Source of the DNA: Escherichia phage PNJ1809-36
Reading direction: 5' to 3' (one strand)
Sequence record: MT944117.1
DNA length: 64,000 nt
The notes under the pieces are model-generated. The model saw only the letters and a program-made list of their open reading frames with translations. It had not been told where the DNA came from and ran no database searches. The position numbers and the translations under genes were made by a program. This document shows positions 8,599-20,366 of this stretch, piece by piece (positions within the stretch are counted from its first letter, which is position 1; every line of letters starts with the position of its first letter).

Positions 8599-8603
8599 AA
8601 GTC

Positions 8604-8666: not shown

Positions 8667-8689
8667 ACAACAGAAGAGAGATTATAATC

Positions 8690-8962: not shown

Positions 8963-8965
8963 GGC

Positions 8966-9020
8966 TTGACATTAACGAATAATTTGTTAATATGTTACAT
9001 AAAGCGGGAATAGTTCCCGC
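8966..9020 (+). promoter_or_regulatory. early cassette promoter E3 with 5'-proximal stem-loop
   Basis: -35 TTGACA 8966-8971, TGtTAATAT 8985-8993, stem-loop GCGGGAA-TAG-TTCCCGC 9004-9020. Confidence 0.65.
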
Positions 9021-9038
9021 TATTTGTAAGGTGGTAGA

Positions 9039-9296: not shown

Positions 9297-9297
9297 T

Positions 9298-9855: not shown

Positions 9856-9910
9856 CATATCGCCGCCACTGGTATAATATTTACCACGTAGGGCGGCAAT
9901 GGTGCCGCTC
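9852..9910 (+). promoter_or_regulatory. early cassette promoter E4 with 5'-proximal stem-loop
   Basis: -35 TTGACA 9852-9857, TGgTATAAT 9870-9878, stem-loop GGCGGCA-ATGG-TGCCGCT 9892-9909. Confidence 0.65.
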
Positions 9911-9937
9911 ATAGTGAAATTATGCAAGAGGTTTACA

Positions 9938-10033
9938 ATGATTAATAAAGAAAATAGCTTGACGGTTGGAACGATTAACGCTATCATTTTCGCCGTTCCA
10001 TTTTGGGTTGTAGTAGCGGCTATTATTTTCTAA
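9938..10033 (+). CDS. small hydrophobic peptide (31 aa)
   Basis: first ATG after E4 with SD AAGAGG; single hydrophobic helix. Confidence 0.4.
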   Translation: MINKENSLTVGTINAIIFAVPFWVVVAAIIF

Positions 10034-10041
10034 AAATATTC

Positions 10042-10102
10042 TTGACAACGTTTTTTAATCTGATAAGATGTATCACATAGGGCGGCGGAATACTTCCCCG
10101 CC
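10042..10102 (+). promoter_or_regulatory. early cassette promoter E5 with 5'-proximal stem-loop
   Basis: -35 TTGACA 10042-10047, TGaTAAGAT 10061-10069, stem-loop GGCGGCGGAA-TAC-TTCCCCGCC ~10080-10102. Confidence 0.65.
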
Positions 10103-10123
10103 AAAACAAAAAAGGGTAACACA

Positions 10124-10486
10124 ATGAGCAAGCAAATCAATACTATCATGTTTAATCTGGTATCTTTCCGCGATGATATGAAAAATTTACCACGTGAAAC
10201 GGTTGATATTCATGTTTCAGCTTATCGCGCCCTTATTGATATGTTACCGCTAAAACGTGATCAACATGCCGCTAATATGATGCTTAATGCTATGCTTAAA
10301 AAGATGATTCAAACGGATCTTACTCTGGCGTATGAGTATCAAGGGCGCTTATATGCTACTTACAACAAGGCGGTACCTGGTCTGGGAAGTACCGAAGAGT
10401 TGCACGGCTTAAACTTGGATCAGAACACTTGGGATAGTATGCGCCGCGTTATGGTATGGGCCGAAAGCGGTAAAATTTACGAATAA
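10124..10486 (+). CDS. hypothetical early protein (120 aa)
   Basis: ORF; SD AAAGGG. Confidence 0.65.
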   Translation: MSKQINTIMFNLVSFRDDMKNLPRETVDIHVSAYRALIDMLPLKRDQHAANMMLNAMLKKMIQTDLTLAYEYQGRLYATYNKAVPGLGSTEELHGLNLDQNTWDSMRRVMVWAESGKIYE

Positions 10487-10492
10487 AAACGG

Positions 10493-10552
10493 TTGACACT
10501 GTTTAAAATTCCGGTATAGTTTACCACATAGGGCGGGAAGTGGTTTCCCGCC
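10493..10552 (+). promoter_or_regulatory. early cassette promoter E6 with 5'-proximal stem-loop
   Basis: -35 TTGACA 10493-10498, -10 TATAGT 10515-10520, stem-loop GGCGGGAA-GTGGT-TTCCCGCC 10532-10552. Confidence 0.65.
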
Positions 10553-10574
10553 AACAATGAAAAAGGTTATCATC

Positions 10575-10940
10575 ATGGCTATTAATATTAATGTTTCCTC
10601 TTATGCTACCCTGGCTAACACGGCTAAAATTGAATTATCCAGCATTGAGGCGGTGCATATTAGCGCCCGTCGCTGGTTTCAACAGTCCTACGGTAACACA
10701 TATTTTTCTTTAATGGTTGACGTTGAGATCGGCGGTAAACTGATCGAGGTGGTTAACGTTCCGTTTCAATATGGCTATGGTGATCATTTTGATACCGTCG
10801 CCCTGGAAGAATTTAGCAAGGTTATCAACCTTGAGGGCAAGGAATTTTCACGCGGCGCGTATCTTTCCCGTTTTTGCCGTGACAATGGGATCACTGTATA
10901 CAGTCATGCAAGCGATGTTAAACGTAAAAAAGATCTATAA
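10575..10940 (+). CDS. hypothetical early protein (121 aa)
   Basis: ATG 10575 with SD AAAAGG; listed 10557 start abuts the hairpin with no SD. Confidence 0.6.
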   Translation: MAININVSSYATLANTAKIELSSIEAVHISARRWFQQSYGNTYFSLMVDVEIGGKLIEVVNVPFQYGYGDHFDTVALEEFSKVINLEGKEFSRGAYLSRFCRDNGITVYSHASDVKRKKDL

Positions 10941-10946
10941 AAAGCA

Positions 10947-11005
10947 TTGACAGCACGAATAAAAAGAGTAAACTGTATTACATAGAGAGCGGGAACACTT
11001 CCCGC
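10947..11005 (+). promoter_or_regulatory. early cassette promoter E7 with 5'-proximal stem-loop
   Basis: -35 TTGACA 10947-10952, -10 TAAACT 10969-10974, stem-loop GCGGGAA-CAC-TTCCCGC 10989-11005. Confidence 0.65.
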
Positions 11006-11029
11006 CTCACTGAAAAAGAGAGAAAAATC

Positions 11030-11269
11030 ATGGCTAAATCTAAAATGTACAACGGTCACAAAAACAAAACTCATTGGAATGTAAGCCTGTGGATTAATAA
11101 CGATGAGGGATTGTATCGGTTTGCATTGGGATTGATCAATGAGTGCGGTAATAAAGATCAGGCGGCTGATTTAATGTGCTACCGTTTGAAACAGGATGGA
11201 ATCACTACAACGCCAGACGGCTTTAAGTATAGTAAAACTGCAATCCGCGCCGCTATGGTTGGAATGTAA
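11030..11269 (+). CDS. hypothetical early protein (79 aa)
   Basis: ORF; SD AAGAGAG. Confidence 0.6.
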   Translation: MAKSKMYNGHKNKTHWNVSLWINNDEGLYRFALGLINECGNKDQAADLMCYRLKQDGITTTPDGFKYSKTAIRAAMVGM

Positions 11270-11282
11270 AGGAGACATAAAA

Positions 11283-11363
11283 ATGAAACATCGTTCGACC
11301 TATCTCACAAAACGTTTTAGCTTAGATCATAAATTGGGCTATTACGGAAGAAATAGAAAATAA
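11283..11363 (+). CDS. small basic peptide (26 aa)
   Basis: SD AAAGGAG + ATG 11283. Confidence 0.3.
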   Translation: MKHRSTYLTKRFSLDHKLGYYGRNRK

Positions 11364-11364
11364 T

Positions 11365-11424
11365 TTGACAACGTTTAAAATTAGTGTAAGATGTATCACA
11401 TAGGGCGGGAAGTGGTTTCCCGCC
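11365..11424 (+). promoter_or_regulatory. early cassette promoter E8 with 5'-proximal stem-loop
   Basis: -35 TTGACA 11365-11370, -10 TAAGAT 11387-11392, stem-loop GGCGGGAA-GTGGT-TTCCCGCC 11404-11424. Confidence 0.65.
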
Positions 11425-11446
11425 AACAACAGAGAGATTAAAGATT

Positions 11447-11674
11447 ATGGCTATCAATATTGTTCGTGTATCCGGCACCGTTGGCAGTTCCCAGGTTGTA
11501 GCAGTTGTAACAAACAAAAAGATTAATGATGTATGTGAGATCTTGAATAAGTGGGCTATTGCTAATTTTGGAGAATATGCGAGCGTCGAGTACATCGAAT
11601 CCTACCAGGTGCCAACCATCAGCCTAACCGATCTCAACGTTGATCGCCTGTTATGCCTGGATGAATTAATCTGA
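11447..11674 (+). CDS. hypothetical early protein (75 aa)
   Basis: ORF; leader AACAGAGAGATTAAAG. Confidence 0.6.
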   Translation: MAINIVRVSGTVGSSQVVAVVTNKKINDVCEILNKWAIANFGEYASVEYIESYQVPTISLTDLNVDRLLCLDELI

Positions 11675-11683
11675 AAAAGATTG

Positions 11684-11740
11684 TTGACACGGGAAAGAAA
11701 AAGAGTAAACTGTATTACGTAGGGCGGCAATGGTGCCGCT
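11684..11740 (+). promoter_or_regulatory. early cassette promoter E9 with 5'-proximal stem-loop
   Basis: -35 TTGACA 11684-11689, -10 TAAACT 11706-11711, stem-loop GGCGGCA-ATGG-TGCCGCT 11723-11740. Confidence 0.65.
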
Positions 11741-11764
11741 CACAACAGAAGAGAGATTATCACG

Positions 11765-11980
11765 ATGGCTAATATCCGCACACTGTTAAAAAATGCAAGT
11801 CAAGTTTTATTTTCAGATGACGAGTATTTCAATAAAGACATTACGGGCGTAAAAAGTCTTAAAGATGTAAAGGATGTAATAGGTATTCGCGGATCTTTAC
11901 GTAAGGGCGATTACTACGGTAACAAGGTGCAATATAAACTGTCAAAAGATTATGATTTTACTTTGACAATTATCAACTAA
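11765..11980 (+). CDS. hypothetical early protein (71 aa)
   Basis: ORF; leader CACAACAGAAGAGAGATTAT. Confidence 0.6.
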   Translation: MANIRTLLKNASQVLFSDDEYFNKDITGVKSLKDVKDVIGIRGSLRKGDYYGNKVQYKLSKDYDFTLTIIN

Positions 11981-11991
11981 GGGATCACAAA

Positions 11992-12150
11992 ATGAAAACT
12001 TGCCAATGTGGTAAAAAGTCTATCTCTGGTTTAAAACGTGGCGTTGCTCTTTGTCAATACCACTATAACGCTCAAACGTGGGGTAAGCAGTGGGCGGATC
12101 AGGTGGAAGAGGCAAAGAAAGAAAATATAAAAGTAGTTGCAAAGAAATAA
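11992..12150 (+). CDS. small Cys-containing protein (52 aa), possible zinc ribbon
   Basis: SD AAGGGA + ATG 11992; CQCG...LCQYHY. Confidence 0.4.
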   Translation: MKTCQCGKKSISGLKRGVALCQYHYNAQTWGKQWADQVEEAKKENIKVVAKK

Positions 12151-12198
12151 AAATAGAGTAAACTGTATTACATCAAGGCGGCGGAATGGTCCACCGCC
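12137..12198 (+). promoter_or_regulatory. early cassette promoter E10 with 5'-proximal stem-loop
   Basis: -35 TTGCAA 12137-12142, -10 TAAACT 12159-12164, two-helix stem-loop GGCGG-c-GGA-ATGG-TCC-a-CCGCC 12177-12198. Confidence 0.55.
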
Positions 12199-12222
12199 TA
12201 ACAAAGAGAAGAGGAAAATATC

Positions 12223-12390
12223 ATGATCACTTTCGCTACCCGTGAAGCCGCTCGCAACGTTGCACGTAAAGTTAACGCCGCCAACTTGGGCGCTACGCTT
12301 AAAGCCCCTGTAAAAGATGAATCAGGAAAATGGATCTTACCTGGTCTGCGTCATGCTGACAAGTTAGGTACTTTAAGCCTTAAAAAATAA
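12223..12390 (+). CDS. hypothetical early protein (55 aa)
   Basis: ATG 12223 after AGAGAAGAGG leader; N-terminus MITFA shared with next gene. Confidence 0.5.
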   Translation: MITFATREAARNVARKVNAANLGATLKAPVKDESGKWILPGLRHADKLGTLSLKK

Positions 12391-12393
12391 TCG

Positions 12394-12430
12394 TTGACTT
12401 TTCGTTATAGCGCCTTATAATGGGCGCTAT
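12394..12430 (+). promoter_or_regulatory. promoter E11 with perfect 8-bp inverted repeat flanking the -10
   Basis: -35 TTGACT 12394-12399, -10 TATAAT 12416-12421, IR ATAGCGCC (12406-12413) / GGCGCTAT (12423-12430). Confidence 0.6.
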
Positions 12431-12464
12431 AGAGAAGAGAAACCACTATTAACAAGGAAACATC

Positions 12465-12686
12465 ATGATTACTTTTGCTATTGTCGCCGTTGTTGCTGGT
12501 CAGGTTTACGTAAACGAGACATTTACTACAGAAGACAAGGCCGCAGGAGATATAACCGCCGTTTACAATGAGTGCAAGGCAGTAGAAAGGATGTTATCGC
12601 CTTGTATGCTAATGAGTGAACGTCAGGATGGGATAACAGTATTTACTAACATTGAAACAGGGTACCAAATGGTAGTAACAAAATAA
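12465..12686 (+). CDS. hypothetical early protein (73 aa)
   Basis: ORF; SD AAGGAAAC. Confidence 0.6.
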   Translation: MITFAIVAVVAGQVYVNETFTTEDKAAGDITAVYNECKAVERMLSPCMLMSERQDGITVFTNIETGYQMVVTK

Positions 12687-12689
12687 AGC

Positions 12690-12746
12690 TTGACACGTAT
12701 TTAATTTTCAGTAAACTGTTACACGTAGGGCGGGAATAGTTCCCGC
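12690..12746 (+). promoter_or_regulatory. early cassette promoter E12 with 5'-proximal stem-loop
   Basis: -35 TTGACA 12690-12695, -10 TAAACT 12712-12717, stem-loop GCGGGAA-TAG-TTCCCGC 12730-12746. Confidence 0.65.
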
Positions 12747-12764
12747 TAAAAAGAGAGAAAGACC

Positions 12765-13118
12765 ATGAAAGCACAAAATGCAATTAAAGAGTACATCCTT
12801 GCCGCTATCGATTTTAATGATTATGGTATTACAACCGAAAAAGAGAAGATCGCGGAATTGATGCGCCGTTTTAATTCCGAGTACTGGTACCCTGATAACC
12901 AATCACGTTTTAATTATAGTATTGTTAAAGCACTTGCATCATGGTTACAAGGTTTGCCATCAGATATTAATATCGCTTTCGAATATTGGGAAATTGATCG
13001 CTTGTTAACATCCTGGGGATACATTAAAGAGAATAGCAGCGATGATAAAATCCAACGAGAAAGGGAAAATTATTGGCTTTATATTGCAGGCGTGATCCTT
13101 GCTTGCTCTTATGAATGA
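12765..13118 (+). CDS. hypothetical early protein (117 aa)
   Basis: ORF; leader AAAGAGAGAAAGACC. Confidence 0.65.
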   Translation: MKAQNAIKEYILAAIDFNDYGITTEKEKIAELMRRFNSEYWYPDNQSRFNYSIVKALASWLQGLPSDINIAFEYWEIDRLLTSWGYIKENSSDDKIQRERENYWLYIAGVILACSYE

Positions 13119-13124
13119 TAAACC

Positions 13125-13178
13125 TTGACAATTTTACAAAACAGTTTAAATTAATAATATAGCGGCAATGGTGCCGCT
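13125..13178 (+). promoter_or_regulatory. early cassette promoter E13 with 5'-proximal stem-loop
   Basis: -35 TTGACA 13125-13130, -10 TAAATT ~13148-13153, stem-loop AGCGGCA-ATGG-TGCCGCT 13161-13178. Confidence 0.55.
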
Positions 13179-13197
13179 CATATAAAGAGGAAACAAA

Positions 13198-13344
13198 ATG
13201 AATACATCTAATCGCGCAGAAAAAATTCAATCTTCCAAGATCCGCAAGGCCTGGAATGAGGAAGTGATCCGCAAAGGCGACAAGCGCAATAAAACAAAGC
13301 GCGGGAAGAGTGACAAATATAATTGGATGGATTTAGAGAATTAA
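13198..13344 (+). CDS. small basic protein (48 aa), Lys/Arg-rich
   Basis: SD AAAGAGG + ATG 13198; KIRKAWNEEVIRKGDKRNKTKRGK. Confidence 0.45.
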   Translation: MNTSNRAEKIQSSKIRKAWNEEVIRKGDKRNKTKRGKSDKYNWMDLEN

Positions 13345-13352
13345 CATAACAA

Positions 13353-13378
13353 GGGCGCACCAAGCGCCCTTTCTTTTT
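13353..13378 (+). terminator. rho-independent terminator
   Basis: GGGCGC-ACCAA-GCGCCC followed by TTTCTTTTT; identical copy at 18808. Confidence 0.75.
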
Positions 13379-13399
13379 ACATGTAGAGGATAAACAAAA

Positions 13400-13585
13400 A
13401 TGACTTTAAACGAGCTTAAAACAGCCTATAACGCAACATTAAAAATAGCCGTGCGTTACCGTGACGAATACGGTTTTATTGCGCAGGGCGTGATCCTGGG
13501 CTTTTCTGACGATGGTTTGATCTATGTTGATGCACATCACAACAAGGTTAAACTTGAAAACGTCATTAGCATAAAATATCTTTAA
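13400..13585 (+). CDS. hypothetical early protein (61 aa)
   Basis: ORF; SD GAGGA. Confidence 0.55.
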   Translation: MTLNELKTAYNATLKIAVRYRDEYGFIAQGVILGFSDDGLIYVDAHHNKVKLENVISIKYL

Positions 13586-13591
13586 AAGTGG

Positions 13592-13650
13592 TTGACACCA
13601 TAACCGGACCTGTTAAACTGTATTACATCAGGCGGGGAATAGTTCCCCAC
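13592..13650 (+). promoter_or_regulatory. early cassette promoter E14 with 5'-proximal stem-loop
   Basis: -35 TTGACA 13592-13597, TGtTAAACT 13611-13619, stem-loop GGGGAA-TAG-TTCCCC 13634-13648. Confidence 0.65.
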
Positions 13651-13670
13651 CATACAAAAAGGTAAATATT

Positions 13671-13877
13671 ATGATCACCGCAAAACAAGAAAAAATCATT
13701 ATCGACGTTGCAGCCGTTGCCGCTATTGCTATTATCGGTACCTACTATGACACCGCGCGTCCTTCCTCCTTGCATGAGATCGCCGCCGTTGCATCAGTTG
13801 GCGTGCTGTTTTACGTTGGTAAACGTTATTTATCACCAATGATTAACAAGCTGACACCGTGGAAAAATAAAGGTTGA
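13671..13877 (+). CDS. small membrane protein (68 aa)
   Basis: ORF; two hydrophobic segments (VAAVAAIAIIGTYY, IAAVASVGVLFYVG). Confidence 0.6.
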   Translation: MITAKQEKIIIDVAAVAAIAIIGTYYDTARPSSLHEIAAVASVGVLFYVGKRYLSPMINKLTPWKNKG

Positions 13878-13929
13878 TCCTGTTTTATATTGTGTTATAG
13901 TTATCGTGTAGGGCGGCAATGGTGCCGCG
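13874..13929 (+). promoter_or_regulatory. early cassette promoter E15 with 5'-proximal stem-loop
   Basis: -35 TTGATC 13874-13879, TGtTATAGT 13893-13901, stem-loop GGCGGCA-ATGG-TGCCGC 13912-13929. Confidence 0.6.
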
Positions 13930-13948
13930 CCCCTTTGAGGATGCAATC

Positions 13949-14233
13949 ATGAGTAAAGCTAACACCGTGCTAATGTTTTCCCTGATTAATGATCCCGCTT
14001 ACTTGTCCAACATGACGCAGGAGGGTAACACATTAACGGCAACATTCACCAATAAGCTTGACCGAGTGATCATCATCTCACTGAAAACAGTTAGTAAAGG
14101 CTTTTACTCGTTAGCTTATCATTGGATCACTGATACCGATGAGACAAGCCAGGACTATAGCGCCCCTTTCCCTGAATCAATGGCACGGGAGATCATCGCC
14201 GCCGTTGTAAATGATGGTTTGTTTACTGCATAA
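13949..14233 (+). CDS. hypothetical early protein (94 aa)
   Basis: ATG 13949 after SD GAGGA; listed 13919 start lies within the hairpin. Confidence 0.6.
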   Translation: MSKANTVLMFSLINDPAYLSNMTQEGNTLTATFTNKLDRVIIISLKTVSKGFYSLAYHWITDTDETSQDYSAPFPESMAREIIAAVVNDGLFTA

Positions 14234-14251
14234 AATAATTTAGAAAAAGGC

Positions 14252-14308
14252 TTGCAATCATTTTGAGATAGTGTATATTTAATTCATAGGGCGGCGGGAA
14301 TAGTTCCC
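14252..14308 (+). promoter_or_regulatory. early cassette promoter E16 with short 5'-proximal stem-loop
   Basis: -35 TTGCAA 14252-14257, -10 TATATT 14274-14279, stem-loop GGGAA-TAG-TTCCC 14296-14308. Confidence 0.5.
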
Positions 14309-14331
14309 AAAGCAAACGAGAGGATTACACG

Positions 14332-14451
14332 ATGAGCAAGTACACAGTAGAATACACGGTAGAGAATCCGGTAGTATCCGAAGGTAAAAAGATGACATTT
14401 GCCATCAGTATAATCGCTTTCGTTGTCACTATCTTATCAATCATCTTATAA
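14332..14451 (+). CDS. small membrane peptide (39 aa)
   Basis: SD GAGAGGA + ATG 14332; C-terminal hydrophobic helix. Confidence 0.4.
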   Translation: MSKYTVEYTVENPVVSEGKKMTFAISIIAFVVTILSIIL

Positions 14452-14461
14452 GGTGCACACC

Positions 14462-14623
14462 ATGAAAATAACAGACATTATCAAAGAGATCGCCCTTGCC
14501 GCTGGCGTTGAAGTCGAGGAAGTGATCGCGCTCAATCTTACAGAAAACGATCTGCGCAACTATGAAGCGGAAAGCGTGAAAGCAAGCGGCGCGGTCCTGG
14601 TATATGATCCGGCTAACAAGTAA
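14462..14623 (+). CDS. hypothetical early protein (53 aa)
   Basis: ATG 14462 after SD AAGGTG; listed ORF 14423 start is upstream alternative. Confidence 0.5.
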   Translation: MKITDIIKEIALAAGVEVEEVIALNLTENDLRNYEAESVKASGAVLVYDPANK

Positions 14624-14632
14624 GGGGATAAC

Positions 14633-14743
14633 ATGAATCCGAAAGATATGCAAGCATGGAAAGGGTACGACGATCTAAGCGCCTTGCGCAATAAGTCAAG
14701 CCGTAACCTTAGACGGTTGGAAGCAAAGAAAAAGAAAAAATAG
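14633..14743 (+). CDS. small basic peptide (36 aa)
   Basis: SD AAGGGGA + ATG 14633; Lys-rich C-terminus. Confidence 0.35.
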   Translation: MNPKDMQAWKGYDDLSALRNKSSRNLRRLEAKKKKK

Positions 14744-14744
14744 T

Positions 14745-14801
14745 TTGACAAGTCCGCGTAGTCTGATAATATGTATCTTGTAGCGCGGCAATGGTGCCGC
14801 T
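14745..14801 (+). promoter_or_regulatory. early cassette promoter E17 with 5'-proximal stem-loop
   Basis: -35 TTGACA 14745-14750, TGaTAATAT 14764-14772, stem-loop GCGGCA-ATGG-TGCCGC 14785-14800. Confidence 0.65.
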
Positions 14802-14821
14802 CACAAGAAGAGAGAAAAATC

Positions 14822-15106
14822 ATGAAAATTACAAAAAGCCTAACTAATTATGCAGCACGTCGCGGATTATGCTTAACCGTTGAAAACTTAGGGAAAGAAG
14901 ACTTTTTGTGTTTTTGGGAGCTTGAGAATGATTGCGAGTGGATGTTTTCTTATTCTATCTGCGAAGATCAAAACGGTTGTTTGTTAACCTGGCGCGGTAA
15001 TATCTATTTACCGGAAGAAATTAAAGAAGAGTTACCAGGTACGATCATGACAGAGAGACAGCTTAAGGAAGTGATCAATTTTGTAGGGCAAAACATTAAA
15101 AAATAA
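14822..15106 (+). CDS. hypothetical early protein (94 aa)
   Basis: ATG 14822 after leader CACAAGAAGAGAGAAAAATC. Confidence 0.6.
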   Translation: MKITKSLTNYAARRGLCLTVENLGKEDFLCFWELENDCEWMFSYSICEDQNGCLLTWRGNIYLPEEIKEELPGTIMTERQLKEVINFVGQNIKK

Positions 15107-15107
15107 T

Positions 15108-15169
15108 TTGACAGTAGGCAAACAACGTAGTAAAGTTTATTACATAGAGCGGCGGAATGGTCCACCGCT
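15108..15169 (+). promoter_or_regulatory. early cassette promoter E18 with 5'-proximal stem-loop
   Basis: -35 TTGACA 15108-15113, -10 TAAAGT 15131-15136, two-helix stem-loop GCGG-c-GGA-ATGG-TCC-a-CCGC 15148-15169. Confidence 0.6.
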
Positions 15170-15191
15170 CACAACAGAAGAGAAACAAATC

Positions 15192-15362
15192 ATGATCCCG
15201 ACTATGTTTTATGTATCGCGCAAAGGTCACAATATTTTTTGGTCTGAAGATTTAAATGAAGCTATGACGTTTGCCCGTGATCGTGTTGCTATCGGTGGCG
15301 TTAACATCACCGTAACCGATGAAAATGGCATTGAATACTATAACGGCGACGATGAAGAATAA
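15192..15362 (+). CDS. hypothetical early protein (56 aa)
   Basis: ATG 15192 after conserved leader CACAACAGAAGAGAAACAAATC. Confidence 0.5.
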   Translation: MIPTMFYVSRKGHNIFWSEDLNEAMTFARDRVAIGGVNITVTDENGIEYYNGDDEE

Positions 15363-15369
15363 TTAATGA

Positions 15370-15390
15370 GGCGGGGGAGTATTCCCCGCC
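15370..15390 (+). ncRNA. promoter-less intercistronic GC stem-loop (same family as cassette hairpins)
   Basis: GGCGGGGGA-GTA-TTCCCCGCC, no T-run, no upstream -35/-10. Confidence 0.45.
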
Positions 15391-15409
15391 GTCAATAAAG
15401 AGGTAAATC

Positions 15410-15679
15410 ATGAAAATATCATTAGACGTTGCAATCAAGGCCATCGAATCTGGTTACATCCTGGTAAAAGATGATAAGGCTAAAATAGTGCATCATGTTA
15501 ACAAGGAAACAGGTGAAAGCATGATCACATATAAAGCCGCCTACTTTCTCCAATCAGTAGCAGATCCGCGCGTACAACGCCAGGTTACGGCGGCTATTGC
15601 TAAAAAATTATGTGCTTTACAGGGTACAAGTTTTAACGAGATCGCCCCGTGTTTTGAGTGGTCAAGCTTGAAAAAATAA
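15410..15679 (+). CDS. hypothetical early protein (89 aa)
   Basis: ORF; SD AAAGAGG. Confidence 0.6.
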   Translation: MKISLDVAIKAIESGYILVKDDKAKIVHHVNKETGESMITYKAAYFLQSVADPRVQRQVTAAIAKKLCALQGTSFNEIAPCFEWSSLKK

Positions 15680-15680
15680 T

Positions 15681-15742
15681 TTGACAACAATTATAAATCG
15701 GGTAGAATGTATTTCGTAGGGCGGGGCAATAAGGCAACGCCC
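15681..15742 (+). promoter_or_regulatory. early cassette promoter E19 with degenerate 5'-proximal stem-loop
   Basis: -35 TTGACA 15681-15686, -10 TAGAAT 15703-15708, GGGCG...CGCCC 15719-15742. Confidence 0.55.
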
Positions 15743-15760
15743 ATTAATGAGGGTAGAATC

Positions 15761-15865
15761 ATGTTAGAGAAAATTTTCACGGTCGTAGTAGTGGGCCTGG
15801 CGTTATCGGTTGGAGTGGTTGCGACTATGGCTAACATGATCCTATCTTCCCACGGTATCGGCTAA
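15761..15865 (+). CDS. small membrane peptide (34 aa)
   Basis: SD GAGGG + ATG 15761; hydrophobic helix. Confidence 0.4.
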   Translation: MLEKIFTVVVVGLALSVGVVATMANMILSSHGIG

Positions 15866-15879
15866 AAGAGAGACACAAC

Positions 15880-16266
15880 ATGAAAACAGAAATCATTATT
15901 GAAATCATCAACGGCTATAAAGAAGCCTTTATTTTTGCTGAATCAGCAAGGGATCATGAAGGTAATTTTATTGATAACTTAGACGATTATGATTTTTCTC
16001 CTAGCGCGGACGAACGGATCGCCCAGGATGTAACAGCCTTTATTAATGCTAATCTTGCCGCTATCTCTGAGGCAATGAGCGACGGCGCAACAGCCAACCA
16101 GATCGGGAATGATTTACATTTTACCCGTAACAGTCACGGCGTAGGCTTTTGGGATCGCCCTGAAATATACACCACTAACACAGCCAACCGCCTAACCAAT
16201 GCAGCTAAGTTTATGCCGAACGTGTCGGCTTACATTGGTGAAGATAATTTGATTTATATTGAATAA
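15880..16266 (+). CDS. hypothetical early protein (128 aa)
   Basis: ORF; SD AAAAGAGAG. Confidence 0.65.
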   Translation: MKTEIIIEIINGYKEAFIFAESARDHEGNFIDNLDDYDFSPSADERIAQDVTAFINANLAAISEAMSDGATANQIGNDLHFTRNSHGVGFWDRPEIYTTNTANRLTNAAKFMPNVSAYIGEDNLIYIE

Positions 16267-16272
16267 AAAGTA

Positions 16273-16329
16273 TTGACACAGATCGCCAGTGTGCTAATAT
16301 TTACCACGTAGGGCGGCAATGGTGCCGCC
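16273..16329 (+). promoter_or_regulatory. early cassette promoter E20 with 5'-proximal stem-loop
   Basis: -35 TTGACA 16273-16278, TGcTAATAT 16292-16300, perfect stem-loop GGCGGCA-ATGG-TGCCGCC 16312-16329. Confidence 0.65.
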
Positions 16330-16347
16330 GATAATGAGGAAAGTAAA

Positions 16348-16647
16348 ATGGAAACTATCGCTATTGTTACCGTAGAAAAACTGGTTGTTGGTGATGTATT
16401 CGCGTTAATGGTGCCTAACAGCAGCAAGCTGGGCGCTTATGAAGTAATGGATCATAAAAATGAATCATTTGGCGACGGTTGCACAATGGCGGTAAAATCC
16501 TTAAAGGATGGAATCATCCGTCAAGCTAATTGGCACAAAGGGAATCAAGTCGGATTAATATCAGCTAATTTCTTGCCAGAAGAGCAAACGTTAGACCAAC
16601 TATCAGGCGGTAAGACGTTAGCCGAACTACTGGAAACAGCGATCTAA
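16348..16647 (+). CDS. hypothetical early protein (99 aa)
   Basis: ORF; SD GAGGAAAG. Confidence 0.65.
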   Translation: METIAIVTVEKLVVGDVFALMVPNSSKLGAYEVMDHKNESFGDGCTMAVKSLKDGIIRQANWHKGNQVGLISANFLPEEQTLDQLSGGKTLAELLETAI

Positions 16648-16655
16648 TCAACAAA

Positions 16656-16669
16656 GGGCGGCAACGCCC
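16656..16669 (+). ncRNA. promoter-less intercistronic GNRA-tetraloop hairpin
   Basis: GGGCG-GCAA-CGCCC, no T-run. Confidence 0.4.
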
Positions 16670-16690
16670 CACATCAGAAAGGAAAAGATT

Positions 16691-16927
16691 ATGAGTATTG
16701 CAACAGTATTAACCGCCGTTAAAACCGCTGAATCATCCGGCTTGCATGTTGAGCTTATAGATCAACCAGGTGGCGATCTCCTTGTCCAGGTTTACCCGCC
16801 GAAAGTAGGAGATGATTATTATTGGTGCTATTCTGATACGTTCGAACAAGTAGACACGAAAGCGATCACGGCTTTTATTTTAAAAGCTGTTGAAGAAAAT
16901 AACTTTCATTATAACATCAATCAATAA
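16691..16927 (+). CDS. hypothetical early protein (78 aa)
   Basis: ORF; SD AAAGGAAAAG. Confidence 0.6.
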   Translation: MSIATVLTAVKTAESSGLHVELIDQPGGDLLVQVYPPKVGDDYYWCYSDTFEQVDTKAITAFILKAVEENNFHYNINQ

Positions 16928-16936
16928 ACTTTAAGC

Positions 16937-16952
16937 AGGGCGGTAACGCCCT
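16937..16952 (+). ncRNA. promoter-less intercistronic GNRA-tetraloop hairpin
   Basis: AGGGCG-GTAA-CGCCCT, no T-run. Confidence 0.4.
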
Positions 16953-16982
16953 ATTAAACGCAATAGGAAGAGGATAGAAAGC

Positions 16983-17273
16983 ATGAAAAAGATGATCGCA
17001 GTAGTTGCCCTGGTTGTTGGTATTAACGCGCCTGCAATGGCTAATGATTTGCCTGAATCCATCACGTTAACCGATATCAACGCGGTAAACCGGATCGGTG
17101 TTAATTATCGCCTATGCCTTGCCGCTAAAACTTTCCAGGACGGCACGACAGAATACCACGGATTCGAGGGTATCCGCTGCGGTGAGCTTGCACGCGACCT
17201 TAAGGAAGATCCAGACCTTGAGGCCATACCGATGACCGTAAACGGTAAAGCTTACGTAAACCGCCAACAATGA
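16983..17273 (+). CDS. secreted/periplasmic small protein with signal peptide
   Basis: MKKMIAVVALVVGINAPAMA signal-like N-terminus; SD GGAAGAGG. Confidence 0.65.
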   Translation: MKKMIAVVALVVGINAPAMANDLPESITLTDINAVNRIGVNYRLCLAAKTFQDGTTEYHGFEGIRCGELARDLKEDPDLEAIPMTVNGKAYVNRQQ

Positions 17274-17284
17274 GAAAGGTAATC

Positions 17285-17404
17285 ATGACAATGGGGATCA
17301 TAGTAGCAACGCTGGCGCTGATCCCCTTCCTGGTTGAATATGTGCTGATTAGTGTTGTCCTGGTAGTCAGTGACTTATTGGAAACGGTTGGCACCTGGTT
17401 TTAA
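17285..17404 (+). CDS. small membrane peptide (39 aa)
   Basis: SD GAGAAAGG + ATG 17285; hydrophobic throughout. Confidence 0.4.
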   Translation: MTMGIIVATLALIPFLVEYVLISVVLVVSDLLETVGTWF

Positions 17405-17416
17405 GGAGTAATAAAA

Positions 17417-17608
17417 ATGAATGCAGAACAAGTTAGAAAGGTATTAGCAGCGTTGCGGTATCACAACCATAGCAAGGTAAAGAATGATCCTGATTATGTG
17501 GATTCAAGCCTGGAAGAAGACACATTGCAAGCTATAAGCCATATGCAAGAATTGTTTAAGCGTATGACAGAGAAAAACAGATCTGATTATATAGGTGACG
17601 AGATCTAA
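17417..17608 (+). CDS. hypothetical early protein (63 aa)
   Basis: ORF; SD AAGGAG. Confidence 0.6.
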   Translation: MNAEQVRKVLAALRYHNHSKVKNDPDYVDSSLEEDTLQAISHMQELFKRMTEKNRSDYIGDEI

Positions 17609-17620
17609 TCCTTACAAAAA

Positions 17621-17646
17621 CAGGGCTTGCTTTTGTCCTGTTTTTT
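17621..17646 (+). terminator. putative rho-independent terminator
   Basis: CAGGGC-loop-GTCCTG (one G-U) followed by TTTTTT. Confidence 0.45.
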
Positions 17647-17785
17647 GTTATACTTATTGAACGGGCGGCACCTGGTAGCAGGGGAAGATAATCACCGGAC
17701 GACCCCGCTATATATTGATAGCTAACATCTATCAAACAACAAAACATCAAAGAAATAAACTATCAAATCTTTACAATGCTACCTA

Positions 17786-17846
17786 TTGACACCGGATCAC
17801 GCTTACATTATTATTTATCACGTAGGGCGAGCAATACAGCAAGCCC
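17786..17846 (+). promoter_or_regulatory. early cassette promoter E21 with degenerate 5' stem-loop
   Basis: -35 TTGACA 17786-17791, -10 TATTAT 17809-17814, conserved TTATCACGTAGGGCG initial sequence. Confidence 0.55.
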
Positions 17847-17863
17847 ACAAAGAGGAAAATAAA

Positions 17864-18232
17864 ATGAGCAAATCAGCAATTAAAGCACTTGAAAAAGCAC
17901 AAGAAGTGATCGCAACGTCAACCACTGGCGCAAAGGTTAATCTCGTTGGTTATCTGACAGATGAAACTATCCGTAAAAATTGGCGTAATGCTGATTTACT
18001 GGCTTGCTTATTGATTAATAGTGTCGCTAATGCTTTCCAGTGTGAAACAGCCGAGAGCCTGGAGGCAAACTTGTTCGACAGTATGGATCAAGCCATTGAA
18101 ACCTATATTCAATCAAATTTAGATAGCTGGAACAATAAAACATGGCCCGACAACTTACGCGATACAACTGATCAACTGATCCGCCTTGCCGTGATGGTTG
18201 AACGCGATAACGTTCACAACCGCACAAAGTAA
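17864..18232 (+). CDS. hypothetical early protein (122 aa)
   Basis: ATG 17864 after SD AAAGAGGAAAA. Confidence 0.65.
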   Translation: MSKSAIKALEKAQEVIATSTTGAKVNLVGYLTDETIRKNWRNADLLACLLINSVANAFQCETAESLEANLFDSMDQAIETYIQSNLDSWNNKTWPDNLRDTTDQLIRLAVMVERDNVHNRTK

Positions 18233-18243
18233 GATTATACAAG

Positions 18244-18263
18244 GGGCGCACTAAGCGCCCTTT
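18244..18263 (+). terminator. putative terminator hairpin (short T-tract)
   Basis: GGGCGC-ACTAA-GCGCCC followed by TTT. Confidence 0.4.
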
Positions 18264-18290
18264 AACGTAAAGAAATGTAAATAATGCGCT

Positions 18291-18327
18291 ATCCCCTATT
18301 GACAGGGGATCGGCGTTATATTATATT
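18291..18327 (+). promoter_or_regulatory. promoter E22 with 7-bp inverted repeat straddling the -35
   Basis: IR ATCCCCT (18291-18297) / AGGGGAT (18305-18311) around TTGACA 18299-18304; -10 TATATT 18322-18327. Confidence 0.55.
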
Positions 18328-18372
18328 TAACTCACTGGCAGCAAACAACGAAACGAAACAAAGGACAACACC

Positions 18373-18792
18373 ATGAACATTAAATCAAATAATCCAGCTT
18401 ACTCCTTCGATAACGCTTTTTGTCACGGTAGCGCCGCCAAAGGCTTCGAAATCGATGGTAAATTGGTTATCGTGAACGTTGACGGGGAAGAGGTTGCAGT
18501 ATATCCGGTAAACGATGTTAAAAGCCGTTTACAATGCCGCATGGATGTTACCGCATATCAGCTTGATCCGGTCCGTGTAGTTGCCCTGGTATTAGAGGAA
18601 GAGATCAAAGCAATGCATCATAGTAATAAGTTTATTGGTGACGCGCAGGATAATATGAACGTTTGCCGCCATAAAGTTAATGAAGCCTTGAAAGAATGCG
18701 GTTTTAAGGATCTGATGATTAAACGTGATGAAAAATTCCGCTTTCGTAATGACCTGGCAAACCGGATCTACTCAATCTATGAAGCGTTATAA
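18373..18792 (+). CDS. hypothetical protein (139 aa)
   Basis: ORF; SD AAAGGA. Confidence 0.65.
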   Translation: MNIKSNNPAYSFDNAFCHGSAAKGFEIDGKLVIVNVDGEEVAVYPVNDVKSRLQCRMDVTAYQLDPVRVVALVLEEEIKAMHHSNKFIGDAQDNMNVCRHKVNEALKECGFKDLMIKRDEKFRFRNDLANRIYSIYEAL

Positions 18793-18807
18793 TTGACAAC
18801 AAAACAA

Positions 18808-18833
18808 GGGCGCACCAAGCGCCCTTTCTTTTT
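18808..18833 (+). terminator. rho-independent terminator closing the early array
   Basis: GGGCGC-ACCAA-GCGCCC followed by TTTCTTTTT. Confidence 0.75.
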
Positions 18834-20366
18834 GCCCGAATAATGTTGATAGATTCCGCCTATGAAAAACCGACACAGAACAAAACTGAATAGATCGCGG
18901 TATCGAGCTAATCAACCATTAAACGAATAACCATACCTCCCAGGGTAACAGGTTGTTAGAGAGCCATTTAGAGCGGTTAAAATCGATCAACAACCAACAA
19001 CAAACCATCAAAAACACCCTTTTACCTCCTTTCTAGTGCAATGATAACCATTATCATCTATCCATGTTTATCTATGCAATATAAGTGCATAACTATAATG
19101 TTGATAATAGTTCGCAACAACTAACTAACCAACAACCTAAAACAATAAGCAAACTAATCATAATCAAAGGAATAATAGCAAGATGATTGATAACGACAAA
19201 CAATCAAACCATGATGAATACTAAGCAAGATAACGATAACACGACAAAACAACCAACTAACGAACAATAACAAACGAAACCATTAAAATAACAACTATTA
19301 GCAAAATAGTGCCTGAATGAAATCATTACAAAACGAATCATTCACAGGATCATCATTAGCACGCTATGCCGGACACATAGCGAGCTAATAATAAGCCAAC
19401 TACACCCCAACAATCATAACCATCGGTGATGGTTATTTCTTGTTACTGCGTAGCTTGCAATAATTGCAAGCGTAATGACGCTTACACTTATTGCGCTGGC
19501 TTATTATTAGCATTATATGTAATTACCAAGATCATAACATTAGCGCAATAACAATAATCATTGTGGTAATTACAAGATGAAATAATCGCTATCGCTCAAA
19601 GATTATTAGCAAGATGAATAATTGCACGTAGCAACATGAGCGAATAGCGACAGGTTGCATAGTGTGCACATAGATGTACACGCAGTGTATAAACATACAG
19701 GAAAATAAAGGCTAATCTTTTGGGGGCGAATACTATCGCGTAGCGATATGTTGAGCATCTTCTCTTAAACGTAAATAAAATCAGAAAATTCTTGATTTAT
19801 TTTAATTTTTATGTTAATAAACGTTTAAATAATAATCATTCTCATATGAATAATAGTCTGCTTGTCATGAGCGGGATTAGTTGACAATGTTCCGTCATAT
19901 GATGAGGTTGCCAAACCATTGATAAATAAGTGTTTGTGTGATTTATAATCAAGCGGCCCACCTTGTCGCTATGTTGGCATGAGCCTTGCATAAGTCATTG
20001 AATACGAATGATAATTATTCTCATTCGCATGATATTTGGGAATTGTCGCTGCGTGGACCTGACGGCCCGAAAATTCGCGTTAAGCACTTCTTACGTATGT
20101 GCCATGATTTTTGCCATATGATATTGATTCTACTAGATATTCTTGCCATGATTGCCATGAAACAGGGTGTCCCGAAATAATCTCTCCCTGTAGATATTTT
20201 GGGTTACTTTTTATACAAGAGTGGGGTGTCAAAAATAATTGGTATATATGGGATAATTGATAGGAATCCCCTATGATAATTCGATTGTAATTCCCTAAGA
20301 TTGATCGTATGATGTTGGTGATTGATGATTGCCATGAAAGATGGCTAACGATGAGAGGAGATTATC
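18834..20366. other. gene-free 1.5-kb region, strand-skewed A+C-rich (CAA/AAC-rich, G/T-poor on plus strand)
   Basis: no credible ORF; long tracts such as aaccaacaacaaaccatcaaaaacaccc and acaaaacaaccaactaacgaacaataacaaacg. Confidence 0.7.
20100..20337. repeat. five copies of TTGCCATGA-type motif including a perfect tandem pair
   Basis: TGCCATGA at ~20100, TTGCCATATGA ~20111, TTGCCATGATTGCCATGA 20143-20160, TTGCCATGA 20329-20337. Confidence 0.6.

What the first reader, a model, noticed from the sequence alone, without database searches (positions are those of the whole stretch)
15370..16952. Same GC hairpin family also occurs between genes without a promoter
Three hairpins (15370-15390, 16656-16669 with GCAA loop, 16937-16952 with GUAA loop) sit just upstream of SD sequences with no -35/-10 and no T-run. 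They are therefore neither promoter parts nor terminators, pointing to an RNA-level role such as processing-site protection or translational coupling control within polycistronic early transcripts.
Basis: seen in the sequence. Interest (0 to 1): 0.5.

Follow-up and report, generated by a model that had tools for sequence, protein, structure and literature searches.

The report
Promoter-less hairpins mark phage gene-cassette junctions
Three small GC hairpins between early genes of a phAPEC8-like coliphage are real, and they are the promoter-less halves of a repeated promoter-hairpin spacer at which small genes have been inserted, deleted and swapped between related phages; this resembles what is already known for T4-like phages.

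Summary
Hairpins lie at 15370-15390, 16656-16669 (GCAA loop) and 16937-16952 (GTAA loop), 7-9 nt after a stop codon and 19-30 nt before the next ATG. None has a convincing sigma-70 promoter or a T-run.

The window is a Phapecoctavirus (phAPEC8-like myophage). Region 8300-18800 is an array of about 34 small + strand ORFs. Nearly every longer gap holds TTGACA-N16/17-TAnAnT, then a GC hairpin 8-12 nt later, then an SD and ATG. The three hairpins share sequence with these.

Comparison with 29 related loci shows they are module junctions:
- Gene 16691-16927 is bounded by two near-identical hairpins.
- Some relatives lack the gene and carry one hybrid hairpin.
- In phi92 and a 136-kb rV5-type phage (MiataMamis), the same gene is 96% identical while its flanks are 77-88%. 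There it sits inside the hairpin of a full promoter cassette.

The closest known system is the PeSL cassette of T4-like phages, including its "half" forms. An RNA-level role is plausible: stems are kept by compensatory changes. It is unproven and not essential, because hairpin B is deleted or degraded in several relatives. These are not canonical terminators, and they are too short for RNase III. Interest is moderate: a new member of a known kind.

The parts
15370..15390 (+). Hairpin C. GGCGGGGGA-GTA-TTCCCCGCC, 7 perfect bp, 9 with G.U and A-U. No promoter and no T-run.
   Evidence: z -4.6. Conserved with coordinated indels in ukendt, ASO2A, PD06, muut and KKE7M. Homology breaks at 15375 and 15397, and at the right edge in ZCKP1 and EcoM_01.
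16656..16669 (+). Hairpin A. GGGCG-GCAA-CGCCC. Left boundary of the g16691 cassette.
   Evidence: z -2.9. Relatives have 6 bp, GGGGCG..CGCCCC. Homology with phi92, L005 and MiataMamis starts at 16660, and ukendt ends at 16670.
16937..16952 (+). Hairpin B. AGGGCG-GTAA-CGCCCT. Right boundary of the g16691 cassette and a near direct repeat of hairpin A.
   Evidence: z -2.0; D1. Outer pair changes A-T to G-C in ESCO13 and PD06. Lost in Schickermooser, L006 and phiWec186. Homology ends or starts at 16938, 16940, 16944 and 16951.
16691..16927 (+). 78-aa ORF: a promoter-less gene cassette flanked by hairpins A and B.
   Evidence: Present in 63 phage records, against about 184-199 records that match the region. 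96% nucleotide identity in phi92 and MiataMamis, with boundaries in the hairpins. Absent in ukendt and EcoM_01, which have a single hybrid hairpin.
15410..15679 (+). 89-aa ORF downstream of hairpin C, present or absent among relatives.
   Evidence: phAPEC8 lacks it together with the following promoter, so hairpin C abuts hairpin 15719.
16983..17273 (+). 96-aa ORF downstream of hairpin B, shared with rV5-type phages at about 80% identity from the hairpin onwards.
15719..15742 (+). Promoter-linked family member GGGCG-GGGCAATAAGGCAA-CGCCC, behind promoter 15681-15708. This is the alternative insertion site of the g16691 cassette in phi92, MiataMamis and L005.
16273..16329 (+). Full cassette: TTGACA-16-TAATAT, then hairpin GGCGGCA-ATGG-TGCCGCC 11 nt later. 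This promoter drives the operon that contains hairpins A and B.
15108..15170 (+). Full cassette (TTGACA-17-TAAAGT plus hairpin 15147-15170) driving g15192, hairpin C and g15410.
17616..17645 (+). Canonical intrinsic terminator (11-bp stem plus T-run) that ends the operon holding hairpins A and B.

Best explanation
The three hairpins are promoter-less copies of the stem-loop module of a repeated intergenic cassette (sigma-70 promoter, GC hairpin, SD, ATG). This cassette punctuates the early ORFan array of phAPEC8-like and rV5-like phages.

They sit where they do because the hairpin is the linker at which gene modules are joined. Recombination within or at the edge of these short GC inverted repeats inserts, deletes or replaces single small genes. 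When a promoter-less gene is inserted into an existing hairpin, the hairpin is duplicated. One copy stays with whatever lay upstream. The other ends up between two genes with no promoter.

Shown: the mosaic structure and the junction positions.

Inferred: the recombination runs through ordinary phage homologous or microhomology recombination, possibly via excised mini-circles as in T4-like PeSLs.

Also inferred: once transcribed, the hairpins act as neutral-to-helpful RNA punctuation. In the promoter-linked copies the stem starts at about +2 to +5 of the transcript, the geometry of a 5'-terminal stabiliser. Internal copies could block 3' exonucleases or cap a processed 5' end. That RNA role is not essential.
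For: (1) Family and context. 19 of 26 longer gaps hold a GC hairpin against 0.56 expected. The stereotyped order is TTGACA-16/17-TAnAnT, 8-12 nt, hairpin, 17-23 nt, ATG. The three hairpins share GGCAACGCCC and AGGGCGG with the promoter-linked copies.

(2) The g16691 cassette.
- Hairpins A and B are near direct repeats flanking the gene.
- ukendt and EcoM_01 lack the gene and have one hairpin, GGGGCGGCAACGCCCC, with A's left flank and B's right flank.
- phi92, MiataMamis and L005 carry the gene at 96% (L005 92%) identity, with homology starting at 16660 and ending at 16940/16951. Their flanks are only 77-88% identical. There the gene lies inside the hairpin of the g15761 promoter cassette.
- phiWec190 has a 48%-identical allele between the same two hairpins and SD linkers.

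(3) Hairpin C. ESCO13, Schickermooser and WPEC2 switch to another hairpin and another downstream gene at the same site. phAPEC8 lacks g15410 and its promoter. ZCKP1 and EcoM_01 have a deletion that starts at the hairpin's right edge.

(4) Homology breaks are concentrated here. 52 of 98 unique ends are intergenic (22% expected). 24 of 98 lie within 5 nt of a hairpin (8.4% expected).

(5) Hairpin-plus-SD without a promoter is a recurrent class: 27 non-redundant cases against 96 with a promoter, in 22 related loci (both subfamilies) plus the window.

(6) Structure is maintained. 38 of 40 variant orthologous hairpins still fold at -6.9 kcal/mol or better, often by swapping to another family member.

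(7) Precedent. PeSLs of T4-like phages have the same components, crossovers inside the stem-loop, and 'half' elements near indels.
Against: - Among intergenic homology ends, hairpins are not significantly preferred over the rest of the spacer: 24 of 52 against 37% expected.
- For hairpin C no hybrid hairpin was found. In phAPEC8 the junction lies 6 nt after the hairpin, with only 2 nt of microhomology.
- The direction of the events (insertion versus deletion) cannot be polarised.
- Compensatory changes and cross-subfamily retention of a hairpin at the B site point to selection on structure that recombination alone does not explain.
- Conversely, repeated recombination could homogenise the linkers and mimic conservation.
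- There are no RNA data and no direct evidence of circles.
Confidence: 0.7

Rival explanations
1. Primary RNA-level element. The hairpins are kept because they stabilise or insulate cistrons within polycistronic early mRNA. They would block 3'-5' exonucleases for the upstream cistron, and/or become a protective 5'-terminal stem-loop after endonucleolytic cleavage in the A/U-rich linker just upstream.
For: - Stems are maintained by a compensatory A-T to G-C change (B), by coordinated indels (C), and by a register-shifted but intact hairpin in rV5-type phages.
- GNRA loops occur only in the sense orientation. There are 9 GNRA tetraloops (GCAA, GTAA, GAAA) among the non-redundant hairpins, and no loop listed has the reverse-complement form TNYC. 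These are related by descent.
- G.T outnumbers A.C at loop-closing positions, 15 to 4.
- In promoter-linked copies the stem starts 8-12 nt after the -10 hexamer, i.e. at the transcript's 5' end. This is the geometry of known 5' stabilisers (my knowledge of the ompA-type stem-loop literature; not checked here).
Against: - Hairpin B is deleted, degraded or absent in at least six relatives.
- Fold energies are nearly equal on both strands.
- At outer positions A.C (22) exceeds G.T (15).
- Three promoter-linked hairpins are more stable on the minus strand.
- No RNA-end data exist.
- The gaps are too long for translational coupling.
Confidence: 0.3
2. Leaky, non-canonical transcription attenuators that set expression levels along the operon. 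This is the role proposed, and reporter-tested, for the stem-loops of T4-like PeSLs.
For: - The ASO2A GenBank record annotates these hairpins, including the hairpin C equivalent, as 'rho-independent terminator predicted by WebGeSTer'.
- An RB49 PeSL stem-loop reduced lacZ expression about as much as rrnB T1.
- The hairpins lie directly after stop codons.
Against: - No U-run follows any of the three: CGUCAAUAA, CACAUCAG, AUUAAACG.
- Canonical terminators in the same array do have T-runs: 13351, 17616, 18806.
- Most family members lie downstream of their own promoter and would attenuate their own gene.
Confidence: 0.15
3. Dedicated, structure-specific recombination sites, analogous to integron attC. 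They would be recognised as DNA hairpins by a phage-encoded protein that moves ORFan cassettes as circles.
For: - The same cassette is found inserted at two different hairpins with junctions inside the hairpin.
- The hairpins and linkers are nearly identical around a 48%-identical allele.
- There is no strand bias, which fits a DNA-level element.
- The PeSL authors raised the same idea, and T4 deletion endpoints at GGGC/GCCC inverted repeats are on record.
Against: - No recombinase was identified or looked for.
- The crossovers are consistent with plain homologous recombination over 8-15 nt of identity.
- Junctions are not at one fixed position: they fall in the loop, in the right arm, or 6 nt beyond.
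- The hairpins are much shorter than attC sites.
Confidence: 0.1
4. Neutral scars: leftover halves of promoter cassettes with no present function at the DNA or RNA level.
For: Hairpin B can be lost. In the window, hairpin A is weakened to 5 bp by a 1-nt deletion compared with 6 bp in relatives.
Against: 38 of 40 orthologous variants keep a stable hairpin. There are compensatory changes. A hairpin is retained at the B site across two phage subfamilies at about 80% identity.
Confidence: 0.1

Closest known systems
PeSL (promoter-early stem-loop) cassettes of T4-like phages RB49/phi1, PST/T4 and nt-1/KVP40 (Arbiol et al. 2010, PMC2839356; Comeau et al. 2014, PMC4122927)
   Same: - Repeated intergenic units in ORFan-rich regions, made of a near-consensus sigma-70 promoter, a GC-rich stem-loop, an SD and a start codon.
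- Indels and replacements between close relatives have crossovers inside the unit, including in the stem-loop.
- 'Half' or degraded units sit next to indels.
- Sub-classes have the stem-loop over the -35 (here 18291-18310), over the -10 (12406-12431) or after the -10 (most copies).
   Different: - A different phage lineage (Stephanstirmvirinae and Vequintavirinae, not Tevenvirinae), with no sequence homology claimed.
- The dominant arrangement here puts the hairpin after the -10, so it is transcribed as the 5' end of the mRNA. In phi1/RB49 the commonest positions are between -35 and -10, or over the -10.
- The three elements of this finding have no promoter at all.
- Terminator activity and mini-circles have not been tested here.
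Intrinsic (Rho-independent) terminators
   Same: A short GC-rich hairpin just after a stop codon. One GenBank record (ASO2A) annotates them this way.
   Different: No U-run follows them, and downstream genes have no promoter of their own. True terminators in the same array (13351, 17616, 18806) do have T-runs.
Intercistronic and 5'-terminal mRNA stabiliser hairpins (REP-type 3' barriers; ompA-type 5' stem-loops). From my own knowledge; not checked in papers here.
   Same: Stable small hairpins in untranslated spacers of polycistronic mRNA. The promoter-linked copies start within a few nt of the predicted 5' end.
   Different: No functional data. The three promoter-less copies are internal unless the RNA is processed. 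One is dispensable in nature.
Integron attC sites and gene cassettes
   Same: Promoter-less single-gene cassettes bounded by hairpin-forming repeats. The same cassette is found at different hairpin sites. The implied topology is a circular intermediate.
   Different: The hairpins are 14-21 nt rather than about 55-140 nt. No integrase is known. Junction positions vary. This is an analogy only.

Membership tests
PeSL-type promoter/stem-loop shuffling cassette | Repeated motif concentrated in the intergenic spacers of an ORFan-rich (hyperplastic) region | tested here: met
   20 of 21 GC hairpins are intergenic. 19 of 26 gaps carry one against 0.56 expected. Density is 2.0 per kb against 0.58 per kb in the rest of the window.
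PeSL-type promoter/stem-loop shuffling cassette | Near-consensus sigma-70 early promoter inside the unit | tested here: not met
   Met for the family: 10-11 of 12 matches, usually with TTGACA. Not met for the three hairpins of this finding: only chance-level 8/12 matches or none. They correspond to the 'half' or degraded PeSLs of Comeau 2014.
PeSL-type promoter/stem-loop shuffling cassette | Stable GC-rich stem-loop (G-run ... C-run) | tested here: met
   Stems of 5-9 bp, -9 to -18 kcal/mol.
PeSL-type promoter/stem-loop shuffling cassette | Shine-Dalgarno sequence and start codon of the next gene at the 3' end of the unit | tested here: met
   The ATG lies 19, 21 and 30 nt after the hairpins.
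PeSL-type promoter/stem-loop shuffling cassette | Indels and replacements between close relatives with crossovers inside the unit | tested here: met
   Hybrid hairpin in ukendt and EcoM_01. Cassette boundaries at 16660 and 16940/16951 in phi92 and MiataMamis. Swaps at hairpin C. Preference for the hairpin over the rest of the spacer is not significant.
PeSL-type promoter/stem-loop shuffling cassette | Stem-loop acts as a transcription terminator or attenuator | not testable with these tools
   No U-run is present. A reporter or in vitro transcription assay is needed.
PeSL-type promoter/stem-loop shuffling cassette | Formation of cassette mini-circles during infection | not testable with these tools
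   Needs inverse PCR or read-level data.
PeSL-type promoter/stem-loop shuffling cassette | Occurs in T4-like (Tevenvirinae) genomes, as originally described | tested here: not met
   The window is a Phapecoctavirus, Stephanstirmvirinae. This is a functional analogue in another lineage.
Intrinsic terminator | GC hairpin followed directly by a U-run | tested here: not met
   One search lists no + strand terminator at these sites. The tails are GTCAATAA, CACATCAG and ATTAAACG.
RNase III processing site (T7 early-region type) | About 20 bp of double-stranded RNA, often with an internal loop | tested here: not met
   Stems are only 5-9 bp and do not extend further.
5'-terminal mRNA stabiliser stem-loop | Hairpin within a few unpaired nt of the RNA 5' end | tested here: inconclusive
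   The geometry is met for promoter-linked copies: the stem starts 8-12 nt after the -10 hexamer. For the three promoter-less copies it would be met only if the RNA is cleaved just upstream, which is untested.
Integron attC / gene cassette | Long imperfect inverted repeat recombined by an IntI integrase | not tested
   The hairpins are 14-21 nt. No search for an integrase was made. Treated as an analogy only.
Rfam RNA families | Match to a curated covariance model | tested here: not met
   Nothing relevant at E <= 1 in 8000-19500. The only hit is a chance STnc320 match at 13527.

The most novel reading that the evidence does not exclude
The GC hairpins are attachment sites of an integron-like system in strictly lytic phages. 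Promoter-less ORFan cassettes would be excised as mini-circles carrying one hairpin. They would re-integrate, by a structure- or sequence-specific mechanism, into any other hairpin of the family, including in phages of another subfamily. That would explain a 96%-identical cassette in Phapecoctavirus, Justusliebigvirus and an rV5-type phage (MiataMamis) amid 77-88% flanks.
Probability: 0.12. Interest if true: 0.75.

Novelty: new member of a known kind. Interest (0 to 1): 0.4.

Why it matters
It explains how the large, fast-changing set of small early genes in two common groups of therapeutic coliphages (phAPEC8/phi92-like and rV5-like) is reshuffled without breaking neighbouring genes. These genes are the ones most likely to encode host-takeover and anti-defence functions.

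It corrects inconsistent database annotation. The same motif is labelled 'phage promoter (PHIRE)' in phAPEC8 and 'rho-independent terminator' in ASO2A.

It extends the PeSL concept beyond T4-like phages.

In practice, the hairpins are natural, tolerated insertion points for engineering, and markers for delimiting accessory gene cassettes.

Tried and rejected
- **Rfam scan** of 8000-19500 at E <= 1: nothing relevant.
- **Strand-asymmetry tests for an RNA-level signal: inconclusive.**
  - Minus-strand folds are as good as plus-strand folds.
  - Of 26 hairpins, the + strand is more stable in 14, the - strand in 5, and they are equal in 7.
  - G.T versus A.C next to the stems is 30 versus 26 overall.
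- **Hidden promoters.** Only 8/12 matches, at chance level. The one before hairpin C has the right spacing (9 nt), but its -10 hexamer is not conserved.
- **Minus-strand terminator reading of hairpin A** (T-rich tail on the - strand). Rejected, because the gene calls made for the array (8300-18800) are all on the + strand, with regular SD sequences and sigma-70-type promoters; only short overlapping ORFs lie on the - strand.
- **RNase III site.** Rejected: the stems are too short.
- **Translational coupling.** Rejected on gap length and the presence of separate SDs.
- **Alternative hairpin CCTATT/AATAGG next to hairpin B** that could mask the SD. Not conserved in ESCO13-type sequences.
- **10-nt repeat ATTAATGAGG** shared by the left flank of hairpin C and the SD linker after hairpin 15719 (D13). 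Too short to tell from chance.
- **IMG/VR scans** with the g16691 and g16983 proteins gave only 3 loci each, so comparative work relied on GenBank phage records.
- **Paper searches** for transcriptome or TSS data on Phapecoctavirus or Vequintavirus found nothing usable.
- **Preference of breakpoints for the hairpin** over the rest of the spacer: not significant, 24 of 52 against 37% expected.
Full report
**1. What the window is.**
- The 14.7-17.4 kb stretch matches 199 phage records. The best is Escherichia phage AV125 at 97.5% over the full length. Most matches are Phapecoctavirus, with Justusliebigvirus also present (Stephanstirmvirinae; phAPEC8, ESCO13, phi92).
- Genes run on the + strand to about 38 kb, then on the - strand.
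- Region 8300-18800 is an array of about 34 small + strand ORFs, almost all annotated 'hypothetical' in relatives.

**2.
  - C: 15370-15390, GGCGGGG/CCCCGCC, extendable to 9 bp with a GUA loop.
  - A: 16656-16669, GGGCG-GCAA-CGCCC.
  - B: 16937-16952, AGGGCG-GTAA-CGCCCT.
- They begin 7, 8 and 9 nt after the upstream stop codon. They end 19, 21 and 30 nt before the next ATG, each of which has its own SD.
- z-scores against shuffles of the same short gaps are -4.6, -2.9 and -2.0.
- No promoter match of 9/12 or better lies upstream, and no T-run follows. The 8/12 matches found with a looser rule are at chance level. The one before C (TTGAAT-18-AAGAAT, 9 nt before the stem) loses its -10 hexamer in relatives.

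**3. The family they belong to.**
- Nearly every gap of 70-90 nt in the array has the same layout: stop codon, TTGACA, 16-17 nt, TAnAnT, 8-12 nt (usually ACRTA), a GC hairpin whose left arm starts (A)GGGCGG or GGCGG, 17-23 nt with a purine-rich SD, then ATG.
- The hairpins are overwhelmingly intergenic: 20 of 21, in 22% of the bases. They occur in 19 of 26 longer gaps, against 0.56 +/- 0.74 in shuffles.
- Genes separated by 1-14 nt have no hairpin.
- Hairpins A and B share GGCAACGCCC with the promoter-linked hairpin at 15719-15742. All three share the AGGGCGG / AGGCGG left arm. 'Same family' is therefore justified.
- With a -10-to-stem distance of 8-12 nt, the promoter-linked stems start at about +2 to +5 of the transcript. 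This is inferred from the usual 7-nt distance from the -10 hexamer to the start site.
- Database annotations of the motif disagree. In phAPEC8 it is a 'putative promoter determined with PHIRE'. In ASO2A it is a 'rho-independent terminator predicted by WebGeSTer', and this includes the hairpin C equivalent.

**4. What the comparative data show.** I compared the window with 29 loci from relatives.

*(a) Gene 16691-16927 is a cassette bounded by hairpins A and B.*
- ukendt and EcoM_01 lack it. They have one hairpin, GGGGCGGCAACGCCCC, carrying A's left flank and B's right flank (alignment in 63).
- phi92 (Justusliebigvirus), MiataMamis and IMG/VR contig L005 (136-137-kb genomes of rV5 type) carry the gene at 96%, 96% and 92% nucleotide identity.
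  - Homology starts at 16660, the loop of A. It ends at 16940/16951, inside or at the end of B.
  - The surrounding DNA is only 77-88% identical.
  - In those phages the gene sits behind a full promoter plus GGGCGGGGCAATAAGGCAACGCC(CC), and in front of the g15761 homologue. It is therefore inside the hairpin of another cassette.
  - In MiataMamis the right-hand junction is a hybrid: B's left arm plus the flank of hairpin 15719.
- phiWec190 has an allele only 48% identical in protein, between two GGG(G)CGGCAACGCCCC hairpins with the same SD linkers.
- The gene is present in 63 records, while the region as a whole matches about 184-199.

*(b) Hairpin B varies among relatives.*
- ESCO13 and PD06 have GGGGCG..CGCCCC. 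Relative to the window this is a two-sided A-T to G-C change. phAPEC8 has the A.C intermediate.
- rV5-type phages share the downstream gene at about 80% identity from position 16913/16939/16954 onwards. At the same spot they carry a different but intact hairpin: GGCGG-TTA-CCGCC, or GGCGG-TAA-CCGCC in EPFV3. I29 has a disruptive change.
- The left arm and loop are deleted in Schickermooser, phiWec186 and L006 (caatcaaTAAcgcccc, a slip between two TAA). The hairpin is degraded in L005 and phita32, and absent in phi92.

*(c) Hairpin C.*
- It is retained, with coordinated indels that keep pairing, in ukendt (GGCGGGG-AGTA-CCCCGCC), KKE7M, ASO2A, PD06 and muut.
- ESCO13, Schickermooser and WPEC2 have another hairpin (GGCGGGA-TTAA-TCCCGCC, with the same TCAACAA left flank as hairpin A) and another downstream gene.
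- phAPEC8 lacks g15410 and the next promoter, so hairpin C abuts hairpin 15719.
- ZCKP1 and EcoM_01 have a deletion starting at the right edge of the hairpin that leaves a gene fragment.

*(d) Array-wide patterns.*
- 38 of 40 variant orthologous hairpins still fold, often because one family member has replaced another.
- Homology breaks are enriched in spacers (52 of 98 against 22% expected) and within 5 nt of hairpins (24 of 98 against 8.4% expected). Within spacers the hairpin is not significantly preferred: 24 of 52 against 37% expected.
- Hairpin-plus-SD gaps without a promoter or T-run are a recurrent class: 27 non-redundant cases against 96 with a promoter, in 22 related loci (both subfamilies) plus the window.

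**5. Most likely explanation.**
- The hairpins are the linker at which gene modules are joined. A promoter-less gene that recombines into an existing hairpin leaves two hairpin copies. The downstream copy then has no promoter. This accounts directly for A and B, and at least for the junction role of C.
- Shown: the mosaic boundaries, the hybrid hairpins, the same cassette at two different hairpin sites, and the cross-subfamily transfer.
- Inferred: the mechanism, which would be general phage recombination over 8-15 nt of GC-rich identity, possibly through excised circles.
- An RNA role is plausible but unproven.
  - For: stem-preserving changes, sense-strand GNRA loops, and G.T favoured over A.C at loop-closing positions (15 to 4).
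  - Against or neutral: equal fold energies on both strands, A.C exceeding G.T at outer positions (22 to 15), three hairpins more stable on the minus strand, and natural loss of hairpin B.
- Canonical termination is excluded by the missing U-run. RNase III is excluded by stem length. Translational coupling is excluded by gap length and separate SDs.

**6. Comparison with known systems.**
- The closest match is the PeSL of T4-like phages. These are repeated promoter/stem-loop/SD units in ORFan regions, with recombination between units, crossovers in the stem-loop, mini-circles, and 'half' PeSLs next to indels.
- The window also shows the PeSL sub-classes with the stem-loop over the -10 (12406-12431, TATAAT in the loop) and over the -35 (18291-18310, TTGACA in the loop).
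- Differences:
  - The lineage is different.
  - The usual position is after the -10, so the hairpin is transcribed at the mRNA 5' end.
  - The three elements here have no promoter.
  - Terminator activity and circles are untested.
- In the searchable library, 'PeSL' appears only in papers on T4-like phages, a cyanophage and haloarchaeal viruses. The rV5 genome paper lists promoters and terminators only. I found no description of this organisation for phAPEC8-like or rV5-like phages. That is absence of evidence within this library only.

**7. Verdict.**
- The elements are best filed as a new member of a known kind: PeSL-like shuffling cassettes, here in their promoter-less half form.
- Interest is moderate (0.4). 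This is a clean, testable example of hairpin-bounded gene-cassette exchange across phage subfamilies, but not a new principle.
- The most novel reading not excluded is a dedicated attC-like, structure-specific cassette system. I put its probability at about 0.12.

Noticed in passing
window 17609-17863: A 255-nt non-coding gap follows the intrinsic terminator at 17616-17645. The segment from about 17660 to 17720 (GGGCGGCACCTGG...CCGGACGACCCCGCTATATATTGATAGC, followed by repeated TATCAAA motifs) is conserved in relatives, including the Vequintavirinae phage A73 and an IMG/VR contig. There is no Rfam hit and the fold z-score is only -1.3. It could be a protein-binding or iteron region rather than an RNA.
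   Followed up: partly
window 12406-12431 and 18291-18310: Two hairpins enclose promoter hexamers in their loops. TATAGCGCC-TTATAATG-GGCGCTATA holds the -10 hexamer, and ATCCCCT-ATTGAC-AGGGGAT holds the -35 hexamer. These are the same sub-classes described for T4-like PeSLs.
   Followed up: partly
window 13351-13371 and 18806-18826: An identical 21-nt hairpin, AAGGGCGCACCAAGCGCCCTT, with T-rich tails on both strands (bidirectional terminator-like), occurs twice, 5.4 kb apart. A weaker relative lies at 18244-18260.
   Followed up: no
window 4992, 37645 (+ strand); 38283, 42369, 48336, 50361 (- strand genes): Outside the early array, terminator-type hairpins carry UUCG tetraloops in the sense orientation of the local genes (TTCG on the + strand, CGAA on + which is UUCG on -). 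This is a clear RNA-level strand signal that the early-array hairpins lack.
   Followed up: no
window 15865/15875: The window lacks the roughly 216-nt gene that lies between the g15761 and g15880 homologues in most relatives (homology breaks at 15865 and 15875 in 5-9 loci). phi92 shares the gene-less arrangement.
   Followed up: partly
L002 (phAPEC8, JX561091) and L008 (ASO2A, MZ726793): The same conserved hairpin motif is annotated as 'putative promoter determined with PHIRE' in one record and 'rho-independent terminator predicted by WebGeSTer' in another. Neither label fits its position downstream of a sigma-70 promoter and its lack of a T-run.
   Followed up: yes
hits: Several near-identical records are labelled Campylobacter, Acinetobacter, Pseudomonas or Klebsiella phages although they are 90-97% identical to coliphages of this genus. 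Host labels in these records should be treated with caution.
   Followed up: no
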